Origin: a virus
Lineage: Duplodnaviria > Heunggongvirae > Uroviricota > Caudoviricetes
Virus record (IMG/VR): IMGVR_UViG_3300039367_000062
Location: 1-5,437 of that record
DNA: 5,437 nt
Direction: 5' to 3' (one strand)
Of the stretch, positions 1,358 through 5,361 are shown in pieces. The position numbers and the translations under genes are program-made. The notes beneath the pieces are model-generated. The model was not told where the DNA came from, searched no databases, and saw only the letters and a list, made by a program, of their open reading frames with translations. How positions within the stretch are numbered: the stretch's first letter is position 1; every line of letters begins with the position of its first letter.

Positions 1358-1700
1358 CAAAACAGAGAAGAACACCTGCGGTGGCAGCCGCCCGGATGGA
1401 TTGGGTTATGAGCCCGTCGTCCGGTGATGCTCTTCTCTGTTTTGCAAAAAAGGACGGTACCAGCCGGAAGCAAGGGTACAAACTGGTACCGCCAGGACTA
1501 CACACAGCATAAAGTTGTGGTGCCGGGTGCCTCCCGGTGCCTGGCGAAGGTTGCACACCAGGCGGGTGGGTATCCACAGAAGGTCGACTGTCAGCCTCAA
1601 CCTTAACCCGCGTGCGCTGAGCCGCATTCACCACAACGCTAAGGATTCTCTCTGGTTGAAAATACTTAGCTGTTATGTGCCTGCTTTTAGCCACATCAGG
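1358..1700. other. GC-rich, ORF-poor structured island (candidate ncRNA or cis-acting RNA element)
   Basis: About 62% GC in sampled 60-nt blocks, visibly higher than the flanking genes. All six frames are open but give non-protein-like, P/G/R-rich translations. Perfect 13-bp inverted repeat CAAAACAGAGAAG (1358..1370) / CTTCTCTGTTTTG (1432..1444); 9-bp inverted repeat CGGTACCAG (1455..1463) / CTGGTACCG (1483..1491); GGTGCC three times in 1519..1541 with a CCGGG/CCCGG hairpin. Confidence 0.3.
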
Positions 1701-1762: not shown

Positions 1763-1778
1763 AATAAGAGTATTCAAT

Positions 1779-2294
1779 GTGATCGCTGAATTAACGGCAG
1801 CAATGACGGCTATTCGTGAAACAGCCCAGATTGCAAAACTAATGAACGAGGCAAAAACTCAAGCTGAAGTAAATGCGGCTATTGGTGAGCTGAACTCAAA
1901 GCTTGCGTCTATTCAGCGCGAATGCGTGTCTCTCGTTGAACTGGTGGGCTCTTATCAAGAAATAAATGCTTCTCTCAAAGCTAAAATTGCAGAATTCGAA
2001 AACTTTGAGGCTCAGACGGAAGGCTATATCCTTAACCAACTTGAGTCGGGTACTTTTGTATACTCGAAGGAGGTAATCGTGAACGGTGGCAGCATAACCA
2101 TGCATCTTTGCCCAAAATGTTTTGGACAAAAGATAGTATCGATACTTCAACCATTCCCGGTTAGCAAAGATGAGCTTTTTCATAAAAGCAGGTGCCTCCA
2201 CTGTGAAAATAAGTTTCTGATGAATAAAAATCCGGATTACGTATCGCCTCCATCCATTGAGGAGTTGTCCAGAAAACTTAACGGCAATCTGTAG
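1779..2294 (+). CDS. Hypothetical coiled-coil plus C-terminal zinc-ribbon protein (about 171 aa); moron-like gene antisense to the early-left operon
   Basis: ORF 1515..2294; the upstream 88 codons are GC-rich and non-protein-like. Likely start is GTG 1779 (AAGAG 8 nt upstream) or ATG 1803 (no Shine-Dalgarno). N-terminal half is heptad-like (AKLMNEAKTQAEVNAAIGELNSKLASIQ...); C-terminal half has CPKC...(about 29 aa)...CLHC, a CxxC...CxxC ribbon. Codon usage is coding-like and AT-rich. Own terminator immediately downstream. Confidence 0.6.
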   Translation: MIAELTAAMTAIRETAQIAKLMNEAKTQAEVNAAIGELNSKLASIQRECVSLVELVGSYQEINASLKAKIAEFENFEAQTEGYILNQLESGTFVYSKEVIVNGGSITMHLCPKCFGQKIVSILQPFPVSKDELFHKSRCLHCENKFLMNKNPDYVSPPSIEELSRKLNGNL

Positions 2295-2302
2295 ATTGCT
2301 AC

Positions 2303-2326
2303 TGTTGTGGATATCCAGATTGTTAA
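2303..2326. repeat. Right arm of the imperfect inverted repeat flanking the 1779..2294 gene
   Basis: TGTTGTGGATATCCAGATTGTTAA; its reverse complement TTAACAATCTGGATATCCACAACA matches the left arm at 1740..1762. The GGATATCC core is itself palindromic. Confidence 0.5.
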
Positions 2327-2331
2327 AGAGC
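2319..2331 (-). promoter_or_regulatory. boxA-like antitermination motif on the leftward transcript (nutL-like)
   Basis: The minus strand reads GCTCTTTAACAAT, matching the rrn-type boxA consensus TGCTCTTTAACAA. It lies about 100 nt downstream of the pL-like promoter and directly after the 2333..2356 hairpin as read on the minus strand. Confidence 0.35.
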
Positions 2332-2332
2332 T

Positions 2333-2356
2333 AAGCGTCCTGTAGGGCGCTTTTTT
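2333..2356 (+). terminator. Rho-independent terminator for the 1779..2294 gene
   Basis: AAGCGTCC (2333..2340), loop TGTA, GGGCGCTT (2345..2352) gives an 8-bp stem with one G-U pair, followed by a T6 run at 2351..2356, 39 nt after the stop codon. Confidence 0.6.
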
Positions 2357-2436
2357 GTTGCTAATGAATCATCCTAGACTTCATATGCTCCAGGCGGCTA
2401 CTTCGTGGGCGTCCTGCCTGTTTGTTGTTTCTCTTG

Positions 2437-2450
2437 GGTACATTATGTAT
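2437..2450. promoter_or_regulatory. Operator-like site (OL candidate) overlapping the pL -10
   Basis: GGTACATTATGTAT matches 12 of 14 positions with GGTACATATTGTAT at 3262..3275 on the other side of the repressor gene, and contains the TACA/TGTA dyad. Confidence 0.35.
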
Positions 2451-2469
2451 CCCAAAGGCACATTGTCAA
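2442..2469 (-). promoter_or_regulatory. pL-like sigma-70 promoter driving leftward early transcription
   Basis: On the minus strand: -35 TTGACA (plus 2464..2469), 16-bp spacer, -10 CATAAT (plus 2442..2447). It sits immediately beyond the repressor-gene terminator and is overlapped by the operator-like site. Confidence 0.45.
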
Positions 2470-2471
2470 GT

Positions 2472-2496
2472 ATAAAAAAACCTGCCGAAGCAGGTT
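2472..2496 (-). terminator. Rho-independent terminator of the repressor gene
   Basis: Minus-strand RNA AACCUGC-UUCG-GCAGGUU (7-bp stem, UUCG tetraloop) followed by UUUUUUAUA, 13 nt after the repressor stop. Confidence 0.65.
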
Positions 2497-2508
2497 CATA
2501 AACATTGA

Positions 2509-3183
2509 TTAGGCTTTGATTTTGTATCTTCTTGGTTTTCCTGAGAAAATCACAGTTCCAATTATAGAGCAATTACCGTTGATCTTAATGTAAGGCTCAG
2601 GCCAGTTTGGGTTTAACGCTTTGAGATAACGCTGTGTCCCATCTTCTATCAACCTTTTGAAGGTGGTTTCACCTGTATCGTGCATCAATGCAATAACGTC
2701 GTCACCGTGGCAGGCAGGTACTTCAGGATCGACAAAAATCATGTCTCCCGGGCGGTACTCATCAATCATTGAATCACCTATCACCCGCAAGATATAAGTC
2801 ATTTCCCCACAGGGTACAGGGCAGGGATACGTTTCTGCTGTGCTCAAATCAACCTCAGAATATCCAACTTCTTTCCATGCTCCGGCCTGTACCCATGATA
2901 TGACAGGGACTAATGTGATTTGTTTATTAGTGATTGAAACATCAGGTTTTTTTGTGATGTTCGTTGTCTGGTGTTCTTGATCGAGCCATCCGACAGGCAG
3001 GTCGAAACATTTTTCGATGTGTCGTGCCATGCTGTCACCGATATTTTTAGTAGCACCATCTCCCATAAACCTGCTGGTCTGGGTTGGCTCGCGATCAATC
3101 ATAGTGGCAAAGGAAGAATTCCCGCCAACACCATCTCTCAGTTTTCTGGCGTTAGACCGCCGGATGTCATGGATTGTTTTCAT
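2509..3183 (-). CDS. CI-type prophage repressor: N-terminal HTH, C-terminal S24 (LexA-like) autopeptidase domain
   Basis: 224-aa ORF. C-terminal domain carries the Ser/Lys dyad signature (VIGDSM ... TTFKRL) typical of LexA, lambda CI and UmuD. N-terminal region is HTH-like (QTSRFMG...ARHIEKCFDLPVGWLD). It is divergent from the Cro-like gene, with operators between. Confidence 0.9.
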   Translation of the reverse strand: MKTIHDIRRSNARKLRDGVGGNSSFATMIDREPTQTSRFMGDGATKNIGDSMARHIEKCFDLPVGWLDQEHQTTNITKKPDVSITNKQITLVPVISWVQAGAWKEVGYSEVDLSTAETYPCPVPCGEMTYILRVIGDSMIDEYRPGDMIFVDPEVPACHGDDVIALMHDTGETTFKRLIEDGTQRYLKALNPNWPEPYIKINGNCSIIGTVIFSGKPRRYKIKA

Positions 3184-3189
3184 AACGAA

Positions 3190-3218
3190 ATTAAAACCCT
3201 TGTACCGTTAAGGTACAA
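3190..3218 (-). promoter_or_regulatory. pRM-like promoter for the repressor gene (possibly leaderless mRNA)
   Basis: On the minus strand: -35 TTGTAC (plus 3213..3218, inside the palindromic operator), 17-bp spacer, -10 TTTAAT (plus 3190..3195) ending 6 nt before the repressor ATG. No Shine-Dalgarno precedes the ATG. Confidence 0.3.
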
Positions 3219-3219
3219 G
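3199..3219. promoter_or_regulatory. Perfect palindromic operator (OR candidate)
   Basis: CTTGTACC-GTTAA-GGTACAAG: 8-bp perfect arms around a 5-bp centre, in the repressor/cro intergenic region, just upstream of the pR-like -35 and overlapping the pRM-like -35. Confidence 0.5.
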
Positions 3220-3223
3220 TATC

Positions 3224-3251
3224 TTGAAGGTTCATTTCAATCATGTAATAT
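3224..3251 (+). promoter_or_regulatory. pR-like promoter for the cro-like operon
   Basis: -35 TTGAAG (3224..3229), 16-bp spacer, -10 TAATAT (3246..3251); predicted transcript start just upstream of the GGAGG Shine-Dalgarno. Confidence 0.4.
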
Positions 3252-3261
3252 GTATACCGGA

Positions 3262-3275
3262 GGTACATATTGTAT
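3262..3275. promoter_or_regulatory. Operator-like site overlapping the cro-like ribosome-binding site and start codon
   Basis: GGTACATATTGTAT, a near-duplicate of 2437..2450; it contains the cro-like ATG. Confidence 0.35.
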
Positions 3276-3474
3276 GAAAGCGTATTGGGACTCTTTAACC
3301 AAAGAACAGCAGGGCGAGTTGGCCGGAAAAGTTGGCTCAACACCTGGCTACTTACGGCTGGTTTTCAATGGCTATAAAAAAGCCAGTTTTGTGCTGGCTA
3401 AAAAACTTGAGCAATGCACGTCAGGTGCAATTACGAAATCTGACTTAAGACCGGATATCTATCCGAAAGATTAG
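3274..3474 (+). CDS. Cro-like small HTH regulator (66 aa)
   Basis: Internal ATG of the 2971..3474 ORF, whose upstream part is antisense to the repressor gene. GGAGG at 3259..3263, 10 nt upstream. Protein MKAYWDSLTKEQQGELAGKVGSTPGYLRLVFNGYKKASFVLAKKLEQCTSGAITKSDLRPDIYPKD has a small HTH-like pattern, and the position is the first rightward gene divergent from the repressor. Confidence 0.75.
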   Translation: MKAYWDSLTKEQQGELAGKVGSTPGYLRLVFNGYKKASFVLAKKLEQCTSGAITKSDLRPDIYPKD

Positions 3475-3505: not shown

Positions 3506-4075
3506 ATGAGGCTAATCGTGGGTAAGCATCACTGGAAAATAGAAAAACAGCCTGAGTGGTACGTGAAAGCTGTCAGAAAAACTATCGCGGCGTTGCCGGG
3601 TGGTTACGCTGAAGCGGCTGACTGGCTCGATGTAACAGAAAACGCTTTATTCAACCGCCTTCGTGCAGATGGCGATCAGATTTTCCCGCTGGGATGGGCA
3701 ATGGTTTTACAGCGTGCTGGTGGCACTCATTTCATTGCTGATGCTGTGGCGCAGTCTGCAAATGGCGTCTTTGTGTCTCTTCCTGACGTCGAGGATGTGG
3801 ACAACGCCGATATTAACCAGCGTCTGCTGGAAGTCATTGAACAGATCGGCAGTTATTCAAAACAGATTCGTTCAGCAATCGAAGACGGTGTAGTGGAACC
3901 GCATGAGAAGACAGCAATTAACGACGAGCTGTATCTCTCAATTTCGAAGCTGCAGGAGCATGCAGCACTTGTCTACAAAATTTTTTGCATTTCAGAAAGT
4001 AATGACGCCCGCGAGTGTGCAGCTCCGGGCGTCGTGGCGTCGATTGCTTCTGGTTGTGGAGAAACTAACGCATGA
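3506..4075 (+). CDS. CII-like / YdaT-like early regulatory protein (putative), 189 aa
   Basis: Second gene of the rightward operon, occupying the cII position. Alternative GTG start at 3518 has a GAGG 6 nt upstream. The functional assignment is positional and from weak family resemblance only. Confidence 0.65.
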
Positions 4076-4410: not shown

Positions 4411-4430
4411 AGGTCGGTCATGAGCACTAA
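4251..4430 (+). CDS. Hypothetical small protein (about 59 aa) upstream of and overlapping the replication gene start
   Basis: TTG at 4251 with AAGGAGA 7 nt upstream (GTG 4209 is an alternative start). The translation ...[56 protein letters not shown] is protein-like with preferred codons. It overlaps the next gene by 11 nt. Confidence 0.45.
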
Positions 4431-5361
4431 ATTAACCGGCTATGTATGGGATGGTTGCGCAGCGTCAGGCATGAAATTATCCAGCGTGGCAATTATGGCC
4501 CGCCTGGCTGATTTCAGTAATGACGAAGGTGTGTGCTGGCCATCGATTGAAACCATTGCCCGCCAGATTGGCGCGGGGATGAGTACAGTCAGAACGGCTA
4601 TCGCACGGCTGGAAGCAGAAGGCTGGTTAACGCGTAAGGCGCGTCGCCAGGGTAACCGCAATGCGTCGAATGTTTATCAGCTTAACGTTGCGAAGCTTCA
4701 GGCTGCGGCATTTTCTCAACTGTCAGATTCTGACCCGTCAAAATCTGACGCATCAAAATCTGACCCGTCAAAATTTGATGCGTCGAAATCTGGCAAAAAA
4801 GCGGGTTTTCACCCGTCAGAATCTGGCGGGGATCCGTCAGTAAAATCAAAACATGATCCGTCAGATAAAAAACCTTCTCGTCCGGACGCTTCGCAACCGG
4901 ACACGCAGACGGCTGAACAGGATTTTTTAACTCGCCATCCTGATGCGGTTGTATTCAGCCCTAAAAAGCGCCAGTGGGGGACGCAGGATGATTTGACCTG
5001 CGCACAGTGGCTCTGGAAAAAAATCATCGCCCTGTACGAGCAGGCTGCCGAATGTGACGGCGAGGTGGTTCGTCCCAAAGAACCGAACTGGACAGCCTGG
5101 GCAAACGAAATTCGCCTGATGTGTGTGCAGGATGGTCGTACTCACAAACAAATCTGCGAGATGTACAGCCGCGTCAGCCGCGATCCGTTCTGGTGCCGTA
5201 ACGTGCTCAGCCCGTCGAAGCTGCGGGAAAAATGGGATGAGCTTTCCCTGCGCTTATCGCCGTCCGTAAGCACGTACACCGAAAAACGCGAAGACCCGTA
5301 CTTCAAAGCCAGTTACGACAACGTGGACTACAGCCAGATCCCGGCAGGATTCAGGGGGTAA
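4420..5361 (+). CDS. Replication initiator (lambda O-like): N-terminal HTH DNA-binding domain, repeat linker containing the origin iterons, C-terminal domain
   Basis: 313-aa ORF with GAGG 6 nt upstream. The N-terminal [13 protein letters not shown]...MSTVRTAIARLEAEGWLTRKARRQGNRNASNVYQLNV is an HTH of the type found in phage replication initiators. An internal 15-bp tandem repeat array encodes SK[SF]D[PA] repeats. It sits in the O position after the cro/cII-like genes. Confidence 0.85.
   Translation: MSTKLTGYVWDGCAASGMKLSSVAIMARLADFSNDEGVCWPSIETIARQIGAGMSTVRTAIARLEAEGWLTRKARRQGNRNASNVYQLNVAKLQAAAFSQLSDSDPSKSDASKSDPSKFDASKSGKKAGFHPSESGGDPSVKSKHDPSDKKPSRPDASQPDTQTAEQDFLTRHPDAVVFSPKKRQWGTQDDLTCAQWLWKKIIALYEQAAECDGEVVRPKEPNWTAWANEIRLMCVQDGRTHKQICEMYSRVSRDPFWCRNVLSPSKLREKWDELSLRLSPSVSTYTEKREDPYFKASYDNVDYSQIPAGFRG
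4722..4796. repeat. Iteron array (candidate phage replication origin) inside the initiator gene
   Basis: Five tandem 15-bp units: GTCAGATTCTGACCC, GTCAAAATCTGACGC, ATCAAAATCTGACCC, GTCAAAATTTGATGC, GTCGAAATCTGGCAA. Each has a GTCA...TGAC internal dyad. Degenerate copies (CCGTCAGAATCTGG, CCGTCAGTAAAATC, CCGTCAGATAAAAAA) continue to about 4875, followed by A/T-rich stretches. Confidence 0.7.

What the first reader, a model, noticed from the sequence alone, without database searches (positions are those of the whole stretch)
2437..3277. Two operator classes around the repressor gene: one perfect 21-bp palindrome and a duplicated GGTACAT-NN-TGTAT site at both pL and pR
The perfect palindrome CTTGTACC-GTTAA-GGTACAAG (3199..3219) sits between the divergent promoters. 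GGTACATTATGTAT (2437..2450) overlaps the pL -10 and GGTACATATTGTAT (3262..3275) overlaps the cro-like start; these two are 12 of 14 identical. The half-site GGTACA is shared, but its arrangement is everted in one class and inverted in the other. This may reflect different binding modes or different proteins (repressor versus Cro-like). The repressor mRNA looks leaderless, as for lambda cI from pRM.
Basis: seen in the sequence. Interest (0 to 1): 0.4.

Follow-up and report, generated by a model that had tools for sequence, protein, structure and literature searches.

The report
e14/SfV prophage repressor operators

Summary
The window is the e14/SfV/SfIV-type lambdoid immunity region: repressor ymfK/cohE, cro-like ymfT, CII-like ymfL. 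It is 99% identical to E. coli K-12 e14.

Comparison with 26 fully analysed relatives shows one operator architecture, TGTAYC-N5-GGTACA. These relatives come from many Enterobacterales genera, with 61-100% repressor identity. There are three strong sites:
- O-central, 3201-3217
- O-proximal, 3251-3267
- OL1, 2446-2462

Two weaker sites follow the same pattern: O-mid (3218-3234) and OL2 (2426-2442).

At pL it is the junction of OL2 and OL1 plus the pL -10. At pR it is the right half of O-proximal plus a TGTAT that is absent outside the E. coli/Shigella lineage.

The shared GGTACA half-site, the pL assignment and the leaderless repressor mRNA are correct. Published dRNA-seq puts the ymfK transcription start on the A of its ATG.

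The SfV GenBank record already marks exactly 3200-3268 as a "putative operator region". This is an ordinary, essentially known lambdoid switch. No protein-DNA binding data were found.

The parts
2426..2442 (.). OL2, a weak operator (TGTTTCTCTTGGGTACA). It lies 20 bp centre to centre from OL1 and covers about +1..+10 of pL.
   Evidence: One mismatch to TGTAYN7GTACA. It is the 5th best PWM score in the window, 10.4 bits against a mean shuffle maximum of 2.6. The homologous position is the 4th or 5th best site in many relatives and a perfect or near-perfect site in Edwardsiella (L005, L024). The distal half is lost in about 9 of 26 loci.
2442..2469 (-). pL promoter: -35 TTGACA at 2469..2464, 16-bp spacer, -10 CATAAT at 2447..2442.
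   Evidence: Consensus scan, 11/12. Both hexamers are nearly invariant across 25 relatives. A promoter is annotated at the same place in phage Ayreon.
2446..2462 (.). OL1, a strong operator filling the pL spacer (TGTATCCCAAAGGCACA). The window carries a T->C change at 2459 in the otherwise invariant GGTACA.
   Evidence: 17.8 bits, 3rd best in the window. The homologous site has 0 mismatches in all 26 analysed relatives. The N5 spacer varies freely. 117 of 120 IMG/VR copies have GGTACA and 3 have GGCACA.
2478..2497 (-). Intrinsic terminator of the repressor gene. Its T-run abuts the pL -35.
   Evidence: Annotated as a terminator in the SfV and Ayreon records.
2509..3183 (-). CI-type repressor (YmfK/CohE type), 224 aa. 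[quoted passage not shown]
   Evidence: Pfam Peptidase_S24, E 1.5e-26. 100% identical to SfIV cI. Conserved AG/S/K columns. The N-terminal domain weakly resembles SPC32H Rep 5d50, E 6e-4.
3183..3218 (-). pRM: -35 TTGTAC at 3218..3213, 17-bp spacer, -10 TTTAAT at 3195..3190, +1 = A of the ATG at 3183 (leaderless).
   Evidence: The transcription start is mapped at the first base of ymfK in K-12 (PMC4681348 Table S3), and the sequence there is identical. A TNNAAT hexamer lies 6-9 nt from the ATG, and the asymmetric flank GGTACAAGT is conserved in 26 loci. The hexamer assignment is my inference.
3201..3217 (.). Its centre is at -26 of pRM, overlapping the pRM -35 and spacer, and at about -50 of pR.
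   Evidence: 0 mismatches and the best PWM score, 23.5 bits. The arms are invariant while the N5 spacer varies freely across genera (GTTAA, GATAG, TTAAA, TCAAA, TTGTT, GGAAA and others).
3218..3234 (.). O-mid, a candidate weak operator (AGTATCTTGAAGGTTCA) overlapping the pR -35. Its centre is at -43 of pRM, the position of lambda OR2, and at about -33 of pR.
   Evidence: Two mismatches. It is the 4th best PWM score in the window at 13.1 bits; the maximum in 200 shuffles was 16. The homologous position scores 9.7-12.1 bits in the 15 loci with at least 82% repressor identity (SfV, cdtI and L007-L021 except L019) and is not recognisable in the more distant ones, although GGTTCAT stays almost invariant.
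3224..3251 (+). pR: -35 TTGAAG at 3224..3229, 16-bp spacer, -10 TAATAT at 3246..3251, with a predicted +1 near 3258.
   Evidence: It scores 8/12, below the scan threshold, so it was not listed. The hexamers align with TTGNNG and CATAAT/TATAAT in all relatives at fixed spacing. No transcription-start data were found.
3251..3267 (.). O-proximal, a strong operator (TGTATACCGGAGGTACA). It covers about -8 to +9 of pR and contains the cro-like Shine-Dalgarno GGAGG.
   Evidence: 0 mismatches, 23.3 bits. It lies exactly 50 bp from O-central in all 26 analysed loci and in 106/106 IMG/VR contigs. The repeat finder pairs 2444-2463 with 3249-3268 at 80% (family D2).
3274..3474 (+). Cro-like gene (ymfT/croE type), 66 aa, a small helix-turn-helix protein.
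   Evidence: Pfam YdaS_toxin 25.1 bits (below the cut-off of 30) and HTH_3 16.9 bits. RefSeq names it ymfT / YdaS family HTH. Annotated cro in SfV.

Best explanation
The region holds the operators of an e14/SfV-type lambdoid genetic switch, and they are of one kind: 17-bp inverted repeats TGTAYC-N5-GGTACA. These are most likely bound by dimers of the LexA-family (S24) repressor encoded at 2509..3183, and probably also by the Cro-like protein.

At pL, OL1 fills the -35/-10 spacer and the weaker OL2 covers the start site 20 bp away. Bound repressor would therefore occlude RNA polymerase.

At the right-hand region:
- O-proximal covers the pR -10/+1 and the cro ribosome-binding site, so it shuts off pR.
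- O-central overlaps the -35 and spacer of the leaderless repressor promoter pRM, so it gives negative autoregulation and is the natural target for Cro to shut off repressor synthesis.
- A weak O-mid over the pR -35 sits where lambda OR2 sits relative to pRM (-43). It may help repress pR and stimulate pRM.

SOS-activated RecA would trigger self-cleavage at the Ala-Gly site and release pR and pL.

Shown here: the sites, their conservation, their fixed geometry and their overlap with the promoters. Shown in the literature: the leaderless transcription start. Inferred: which protein binds which site, the order of affinities, cooperativity or looping, and activation.
For: Identity of the element:
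- 99.1% identical to K-12 e14 ymfK-ymfT and 98-99% to SfV/SfIV.
- The repressor is 100% identical to SfIV cI.
- S24 domain with a conserved AG site and Ser/Lys.

One motif:
- TGTAYN7GTACA with at most 1 mismatch occurs only at 2426, 2446, 3201 and 3251; 0/200 shuffles reach this count.
- In each of 26 relatives of 2-6 kb, matches with at most 1 mismatch fall only at the homologous positions, with one exception in L019.

Operator signature:
- Half-sites are invariant while the N5 spacers vary, both across genera and within the E. coli lineage.

Geometry:
- The O-central to O-proximal distance is 50 bp in 26/26 loci and 106/106 viral contigs.
- OL1 lies inside the pL spacer.

Secondary sites:
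- A PWM ranks O-mid and OL2 4th and 5th in the window and at homologous positions in most relatives.

pRM:
- The transcription start is at the A of the ATG.

Prior annotation:
- The SfV record marks 26377..26445 as a putative operator region. This equals window 3200..3268, the span from O-central to O-proximal.
Against: - No binding, footprint, ChIP or reporter data for YmfK/CohE or YmfT/CroE were found in the searchable literature.
- The motif and the PWM were derived from the same sites that they score.
- O-mid is degenerate and disappears in distant relatives, so the conserved GGTTCAT may have another role.
- O-central is as close to consensus as O-proximal. A simple lambda-like order of affinities (pR site strong, pRM site weak) is therefore not evident.
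- The pR start site is predicted only.
- The 50-bp spacing (about 4.8 helical turns) is not an obvious integral-turn phasing for looping.
Confidence: 0.8

Rival explanations
1. There are two distinct operator classes: an inverted TGTACC-N5-GGTACA site, and an everted GGTACAT-NN-TGTAT site duplicated at pL and pR. They are read in different binding modes or by different proteins (repressor versus Cro-like).
For: - The two 14-mers exist and are 12/14 identical.
- GGTACATTATGTAY at pL is nearly invariant, in 22 of 25 loci.
- In six loci the GGTACA next to the pL -10 is kept although the distal half of OL2 is lost. A half-site function of its own is therefore not excluded.
Against: - At pR the TGTAT half is absent in most genera; the sequence between GGTACA and the ATG is shortened or changed.
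- At pL the 14-mer is fully accounted for by the OL2 right half, the pL -10 (ATTATG) and the OL1 left half.
- Every strong site has the same inverted arrangement.
Confidence: 0.08
2. The motif belongs mainly to another protein, either the Cro-like YmfT alone or a host factor. The repressor would then recognise something else in these regions.
For: - No experiment assigns the motif to a protein.
- The invariant GGTTCAT (3229..3235) and the AAGT flank of O-central are conserved beyond what the palindrome needs.
Against: - The motif overlaps all three promoters that a prophage repressor must control.
- It stays constant together with the conserved putative recognition segment of the repressor N-terminal domain (T-Q-x-S-R) across 61-100% identity.
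- In characterised lambdoid switches, CI and Cro share operators. This holds for lambda, and for CP-933P PaaR2/YdaS (PMC8630535).
Confidence: 0.07
3. The central palindrome acts as an RNA hairpin or intrinsic terminator on the minus strand, just upstream of the repressor start codon, rather than as a protein-binding site.
For: The terminator scan lists CTTGTACCTTAACGGTACAAG followed by GGTTTTAATT on the minus strand.
Against: - The mapped pRM start (3183) lies downstream of it, so pRM transcripts do not contain it.
- The T-run is not conserved in other genera.
- The same half-sites recur at two other promoters, where no hairpin-plus-T-run exists.
- The arms never vary, so there is no covariation evidence for pairing.
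Confidence: 0.03

Closest known systems
Phage lambda OR/OL switch (CI, Cro, pR/pRM/pL)
   Same: - Divergent repressor and cro genes, with a leaderless repressor mRNA.
- An S24 self-cleaving repressor.
- 17-bp pseudo-palindromic operators overlapping pR, pRM and pL.
- A site at about -43 of pRM (O-mid), positioned like OR2.
- A site inside the pRM core (O-central), positioned like OR3.
- Tandem sites at pL about 20 bp apart.
   Different: - Only two strong sites on the right, always 50 bp apart, with a degenerate middle site (spacings 17 and 33 bp rather than 23-24).
- The pR-proximal site lies downstream of the -10, over +1 and the cro ribosome-binding site, rather than between -35 and +1.
- Different half-site (GGTACA).
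- The N-terminal domain is not detectably lambda-like (no Pfam HTH hit).
- No N gene is reported in SfV/SfIV.
e14 (ymfK/cohE-ymfT/croE) and SfV/SfIV cI-cro immunity regions
   Same: It is the same element.
- 98-99% DNA identity and an identical repressor protein.
- The SfV GenBank record marks the O-central to O-proximal span as a putative operator region.
- The ymfK mRNA is published as leaderless.
   Different: - The window has a minority T->C allele in OL1 (2459).
- It also has a different inserted gene cassette left of pL.
- I could not read the SfV (PMC134923) or e14 (PMC331406) papers, so I do not know how precisely they defined the sites.
CP-933P / Rac switches (PaaR2 or RacR, YdaS, YdaT)
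   Same: - A short intergenic region (97 bp there, 90 bp here).
- A leaderless repressor mRNA.
- A YdaS-like Cro analogue followed by a CII-like gene.
- Repressor and Cro analogue compete for overlapping palindromic sites, and there is a pL/OL copy (PMC8630535; PMC9638921).
   Different: - Those repressors lack the S24 cleavage domain.
- Their operators are different sequences: GTTTAGTAA-type 18-bp palindromes, four equally spaced, for CP-933P, and TAGGC-N3-GCCTA for RacR.
- Their binding has been shown by footprinting, which is not the case here.
Salmonella phage SPC32H Rep (PDB 5d50) and PaaR2-type CI N-terminal domains (7nkv)
   Same: Weak sequence similarity of the N-terminal DNA-binding domain: E 6e-4 over residues 1-73, and E 0.047.
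   Different: The similarity is marginal. The chain matched for SPC32H Rep is 199 residues. No structural comparison was made here.

Membership tests
Lambdoid CI/Cro immunity switch | Divergently transcribed repressor and small HTH (cro-like) genes separated by a short control region, followed by a CII-like gene and replication genes. | tested here: met
   - ORFs at 2509..3183(-), 3274..3474(+), 3506..4075(+) and 4420..5361(+).
- Pfam hits: S24, YdaS/HTH_3 (weak), Phage_CP76 and HTH_36.
- The intergenic region is 90 bp.
Lambdoid CI/Cro immunity switch | Repressor with a LexA-type self-cleavage module (S24 fold, Ala-Gly site, Ser/Lys dyad). | tested here: met
   Peptidase_S24 E 1.5e-26. A100-G101, S138 and K176 are invariant in three relatives with 74-79% identity. 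Cleavage itself was not tested.
Lambdoid CI/Cro immunity switch | Repeated pseudo-palindromic operators overlapping pR, pRM and pL. | tested here: met
   TGTAYC-N5-GGTACA at 2446, 3201 and 3251, with weaker copies at 2426 and 3218. Conserved at homologous positions in 26 relatives. Promoter overlaps are shown.
Lambdoid CI/Cro immunity switch | Three adjacent operators per side at about 2 helical turns (lambda, 434, P22 pattern). | tested here: not met
   On the right there are two strong sites 50 bp apart, with a degenerate site 17 and 33 bp from them. On the left there are two sites 20 bp apart, the second weak or absent in some genera.
Lambdoid CI/Cro immunity switch | Leaderless repressor mRNA from the maintenance promoter. 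| tested here: met
   Published dRNA-seq for K-12 e14 gives TSS RVS_(I)-1202156, equal to the first base of ymfK, leader length 0 (text). The K-12 and window sequences are identical from the ATG through O-central. The evidence is transferred from K-12, not measured on this strain.
Lambdoid CI/Cro immunity switch | Demonstrated binding of the repressor and Cro to the operators, and bistability. | not testable with these tools
   No data were found in 10 literature searches (for example).
e14/SfV immunity type | Near-identity of repressor, cro and control region to e14 ymfK-ymfT and SfV cI-cro. | tested here: met
   99.1% to K-12 over 2390..3300. 98.6-98.9% to SfV/SfIV. The repressor is 100% identical to SfIV cI.
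Rac/CP-933P RacR/PaaR2-YdaS-YdaT module | YdaS-family Cro analogue. | tested here: inconclusive
   Pfam YdaS_toxin scores 25.1 bits, below the curated cut-off of 30. RefSeq nevertheless names the protein a YdaS family HTH.
Rac/CP-933P RacR/PaaR2-YdaS-YdaT module | RacR/PaaR2-type repressor without a peptidase domain, and a YdaT-type CII analogue. | tested here: not met
   The repressor carries an S24 domain. The downstream gene matches Phage_CP76 and gave no YdaT-family hit.

The most novel reading that the evidence does not exclude
The e14/SfV-type switch may follow a simpler logic than lambda. In this reading, two equally good operators held exactly 50 bp apart clamp pR between them, with repressor dimers bridging about five helical turns. 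The maintenance promoter would be mainly negatively autoregulated through a site in its own core. Conserved lone GGTACA half-sites (next to the pL -10, and GGTTCA over the pR -35) would serve as "one-and-a-half-site" extensions read by a third subunit or by the Cro-like protein.
Probability: 0.15. Interest if true: 0.4.

Novelty: already known. Interest (0 to 1): 0.15.

Why it matters
This immunity type is very common. 1325 of 5426 complete E. coli genomes carry at least 80% of the 921-bp control region. It is shared by K-12 e14, the Shigella serotype-converting phages SfV and SfIV, phage cdtI and a set of Stx2c-converting phages.

A clean operator consensus and site map could help with several tasks:
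- assigning immunity groups
- predicting which prophages cross-repress
- designing reporters for SOS induction of these toxin-carrying and serotype-converting phages

Conceptually it adds nothing unexpected to the lambdoid paradigm.

Tried and rejected
1. Literature on mapped operators for e14/SfV. Ten searches found no binding data. The SfV genome paper (PMC134923) and the e14 analysis (PMC331406) are not held. The NAR 2022 "defective prophage repressor" paper concerns Rac, not e14.

2. The terminator reading of the central palindrome. I rejected it because the pRM start lies downstream and the T-run is not conserved.

3. A further operator 20 bp either side of O-proximal, or in the pR spacer at the position equivalent to OL1. 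There is no match: TTCATTTCAATCATGTA fits 5/12 half-site positions by eye, and TGTATGAAAGCGTATTG is not among the top PWM scores.

4. The PWM hit at 2802 inside the repressor gene (7.0 bits). It recurs only where the coding sequence is nearly identical, so I treat it as chance.

5. Whether the conserved pL-leader RNA is an HK022 put homologue.
- There is no sequence similarity to the HK022 immunity region.
- The covariance model found no second copy downstream of pR.

6. Whether the rrn-type boxA at 2320..2332 is a family feature. It occurs only in the window, L007 and L022.

7. The Rfam scan found nothing in 2437..3277.
Full report
**What the window is**

ORF listing and Pfam give a lambdoid immunity region:
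- A 224-aa repressor with a C-terminal S24 peptidase domain, on the minus strand at 2509..3183.
- A 66-aa HTH protein at 3274..3474 (weak YdaS/HTH_3 hits).
- A CII-like Phage_CP76 protein at 3506..4075.
- A replication-initiator-like protein at 4420..5361.
- To the left, an RdgC-like gene on the minus strand.

DNA searches identify it as the e14/SfV/SfIV immunity type.
- It is 98-99.9% identical to phages PhiR49_1, SfIV and SfV, and about 95% identical to Ayreon, cdtI and a set of Stx2c-converting phages.
- It is 99.1% identical to K-12 e14 ymfK-ymfT over 2390..3300.
- 1325 of 5426 complete E. coli genomes carry most of this control region.
- The repressor is 100% identical to SfIV cI.
- It has the Ala-Gly site, Ser and Lys expected of a self-cleaving LexA/CI-type protein.

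**Checking the observation**

- The central element has perfect 8-bp arms and a 5-bp spacer. As a 21-mer one inner pair does not match.
- The two 14-mers are 12/14 identical.
- The first 14-mer overlaps the -10 of a near-consensus leftward promoter, TTGACA-16-CATAAT at 2469..2442.
- The second overlaps the cro-like ATG (3274).
- GGTACA is over-represented: 10 copies against 1.39 expected.

**Re-registration: one architecture, not two**

Aligning the two control regions with K-12 e14, SfV, Ayreon, cdtI and two relatives at about 70% DNA identity (Hafnia phage yong2, Edwardsiella phage EPP-1) shows which bases are held.

On the right there are two conserved units:
- ATGTAY-N3-GGAGGTACA, 50 bp further on.

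On the left the conserved unit is TGTAYC-N5-GGTACA at 2446..2462.

All strong sites are therefore the same inverted repeat, TGTAYC-N5-GGTACA:

| Site | Coordinates | Sequence |
|---|---|---|
| O-central | 3201..3217 | TGTACC GTTAA GGTACA |
| O-proximal | 3251..3267 | TGTATA CCGGA GGTACA |
| OL1 | 2446..2462 | TGTATC CCAAA GGCACA |

The repeat finder had independently paired 2444-2463 with 3249-3268 (family D2).

The pattern TGTAYN7GTACA with at most 1 mismatch hits only 2426, 2446, 3201 and 3251. That is 6 strand matches against 0.35 expected, and 0/200 shuffles reach it. The pattern was derived from these sites, so this test is partly circular.

**Comparative test**

A scan of one genome per species with a three-repressor alignment returned 27 loci; 24 of them have 61-100% repressor identity and come from many genera. 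These include Pseudocitrobacter, Klebsiella, Atlantibacter, Leclercia, Phytobacter, Enterobacter, Pantoea, Trabulsiella, Kluyvera, Limnobaculum, Rahnella, Edwardsiella, Serratia, Symbiopectobacterium, Proteus and Entomohabitans.

Twenty-six non-redundant relatives were analysed in full: four phage loci plus 22 genome loci (two duplicate E. coli loci left out).
- In every one of the 26, the three sites are present with at most 1 mismatch at the homologous places.
- Within each 2-6 kb locus, such matches occur nowhere else except at the OL2 position, with one exception in L019.
- The half-sites are invariant while the central five bases of O-central and OL1 change freely. This is the classical signature of a dimer-binding operator.
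- The same holds within the E. coli lineage. Among 120 IMG/VR contigs, variation in O-central is confined to N5.
- The O-central to O-proximal distance is exactly 50 bp in 26/26 loci and 106/106 viral contigs. In contrast, the distances to the two start codons vary.

**Weaker sites**

A PWM built from the strong sites ranks two further positions 4th and 5th in the window:
- 3218..3234 (AGTATC TTGAA GGTTCA, 13.1 bits).
- 2426..2442 (TGTTTC TCTTG GGTACA, 10.4 bits).

The next score is 7.0 bits (2802, inside the repressor gene), and the one after that is -3.5 bits. Mononucleotide shuffles give a mean best score of 2.6 and a maximum of 16.

At the homologous positions these are also the 4th and 5th best sites in most relatives with at least 82% repressor identity. 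OL2 is a perfect or near-perfect site in Edwardsiella. Both fade in the most distant loci.

The two 17-mers are 20 bp apart centre to centre, and ATTATG in the junction is the pL -10.

At pR the 14-mer is the right half of O-proximal followed by TGTATG, which contains the start codon. That TGTAT arises from a two-base difference specific to the E. coli/Shigella lineage. No operator-like partner follows it.

**Promoters and geometry**

- **pL.** OL1 occupies the spacer between -35 and -10, and OL2 covers the start region. The repressor gene's terminator (2497..2478) ends directly at the pL -35.
- **pR.** TTGAAG (3224..3229), a 16-bp spacer, TAATAT (3246..3251). This falls below the scan threshold. 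However, it aligns with TTGNNG and CATAAT/TATAAT at fixed spacing in all relatives. O-proximal then covers about -8 to +9 and the GGAGG ribosome-binding site.
- **pRM.** Romero et al. 2014 list ymfK among five leaderless E. coli mRNAs. Their Table S3 gives the transcription start at the first base of the gene, leader length 0. The K-12 sequence is identical to the window from the ATG through O-central.
  - With +1 at 3183, the -10 is TTTAAT (3195..3190) and the -35 is TTGTAC (3218..3213).
  - A TNNAAT hexamer 6-9 nt from the ATG is conserved across genera. So is the asymmetric right flank of O-central (GGTACAAGT), which supplies the TTG of that -35.

O-central is therefore centred at -26 of pRM and about -50 of pR. 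O-mid is at -43 of pRM, the position of lambda OR2, and about -33 of pR. O-proximal is at about +1 of pR.

**Mechanism**

The following steps are inferred, not shown.
- Repressor dimers on OL1 and OL2 occlude pL.
- Repressor on O-proximal blocks pR.
- Occupancy of O-central represses pRM (negative autoregulation). O-central is also the logical site for the Cro-like protein to silence repressor synthesis without silencing pR.
- O-mid may add to pR repression and, by position, could stimulate pRM.

One weak hint supports the last point. The four loci whose pRM -10 has the consensus A at -11 (L019, L026, L027, L030) are all among the nine with O-mid below 5 bits. None of the 15 with a stronger O-mid has it. 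This is read by eye, and the loci are not phylogenetically independent.

The invariant 50-bp spacing is compatible with cooperation between the two strong sites across pR. It could also follow from packed promoter elements alone.

SOS induction by RecA-stimulated self-cleavage fits the S24 module. It also fits the published SOS-inducible e14 division inhibitor sfiC (cited in PMC6206680).

No binding data for either protein were found. A 2021 survey lists YmfK only as "SOS-sensitive repressor" and CroE as regulating "croE operon".

**Comparison with known systems**

In kind this is a lambda-type switch.

| Feature | This region | Lambda/434/P22 |
|---|---|---|
| Strong right-hand sites | two, at fixed 50-bp spacing, plus a degenerate middle site | three, about 23-24 bp apart |
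| pR-proximal site | over +1 and the ribosome-binding site | between -35 and +1 |
| Half-site | GGTACA | different |

The CP-933P and Rac modules share the short intergenic region, the leaderless repressor mRNA and a YdaS-like Cro analogue. Their repressors lack the peptidase domain and their operators have other sequences.

The repressor N-terminal domain is only marginally similar to SPC32H Rep and PaaR2-type domains.

The SfV GenBank record (U82619.2) annotates 26377..26445 as a "putative operator region". In window coordinates this is 3200..3268, exactly from the first base of O-central's flank to the last of O-proximal's. The right-hand sites were therefore evidently recognised in 2002. 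I could not read that paper or the e14 analysis.

**Verdict**

It is wrong on there being two classes.
- The feature is an ordinary and essentially known lambdoid operator set. The contribution here is a cleaner consensus, a five-site map and comparative support.

**Seen in passing**

- A conserved, covarying RNA hairpin in the pL leader.
- An rrn-type boxA.
- A sub-threshold STnc100-like match.
- A rare operator allele in this window.
- An inserted convergent gene.
- Iteron-like repeats in the replication gene.

Details are in the list of things noticed in passing.

Noticed in passing
window 2364..2426, minus strand (just left of the finding): A conserved block of about 63 nt lies at the 5' end of the predicted pL transcript. 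It is present in the window, K-12 e14, SfV and 11 other fetched relatives, 14 loci in all. The inner 5-bp stem shows compensatory changes (CCUGG/CCAGG, CCGGU/ACCGG, CCCGG/CCGGG, CCCCA/UGGGG) around a conserved 12-nt loop, GGCAUAUGAAGU. Pairing is 95.5%, and 0/500 shuffles reach the covariation score. There is no Rfam family, no similarity to the HK022 put region and only one copy per locus. The window's own copy does not fold significantly better than shuffles (z -1.2). It is possibly a cis-acting leader element, for antitermination or stability, in these phages: SfV and SfIV are reported to lack N.
   Followed up: partly
window 2459 (within OL1, 2446..2462): The window has GGCACA where all 26 analysed relatives, K-12 e14 and Ayreon, and 117 of 120 IMG/VR contigs, have the invariant half-site GGTACA; 3 of 120 share the C. 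This could be an operator-weakening mutation of pL control in this prophage.
   Followed up: partly
window 2320..2332, minus strand: AGCTCTTTAACAA matches the E. coli rrn boxA consensus TGCTCTTTAACAA (consensus quoted from memory) at 12/13. It lies in the orientation of the pL transcript, about 105 nt downstream of the predicted start. The exact 12-mer occurs only in the window, L007 (the same inserted cassette) and L022 (Limnobaculum) among the 35 loci held at the time. It is therefore not a feature of the family.
   Followed up: partly
window 1444..1667, minus strand: A full-length match to the Rfam sRNA family STnc100 (RF02076) scores 40.3 bits, E 2.3e-6, below the gathering score of 47. 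It lies between the inserted gene and the RdgC-like gene, in the pL transcription direction. It contains a GGTACC...GGTACA...GGTACC inverted repeat at about 1457..1495, which accounts for one of the extra GGTACA copies.
   Followed up: no
window 1776..2352, plus strand: A 172-aa ORF has a coiled-coil-like N-terminal part and two CxxC pairs, with no significant Pfam family. It has its own intrinsic terminator at 2333..2352. It is inserted convergently to pL, so pL transcripts must read antisense through it. K-12 e14 and SfV carry different genes at this place.
   Followed up: no
window 4729..4792, plus strand (inside the replication-initiator-like gene 4420..5361): There are four tandem 15-bp repeats, TCTGACCCGTCAAAA, 81% matching. 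They resemble origin iterons embedded in the initiator gene, as in lambda O. The spurious mir-5880 Rfam hit falls on them.
   Followed up: no
window 1286, 2813, 2888, 4122, 4167 (and 1475): Six copies of GGTACA lie outside the operators, against about 1.4 expected for the whole window. None has an operator-like partner, except 2802..2818 (7.0 bits, inside the repressor gene). This is unexplained. It may simply reflect local GTAC-rich composition.
   Followed up: no
window 3229..3235 and homologous positions in L004-L030: GGTTCAT, immediately after the pR -35, is almost invariant across all genera, even where the rest of the candidate O-mid site has decayed; in Proteus it reads GGTACAT. Its conservation is not fully explained by the weak-operator reading.
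   Followed up: partly
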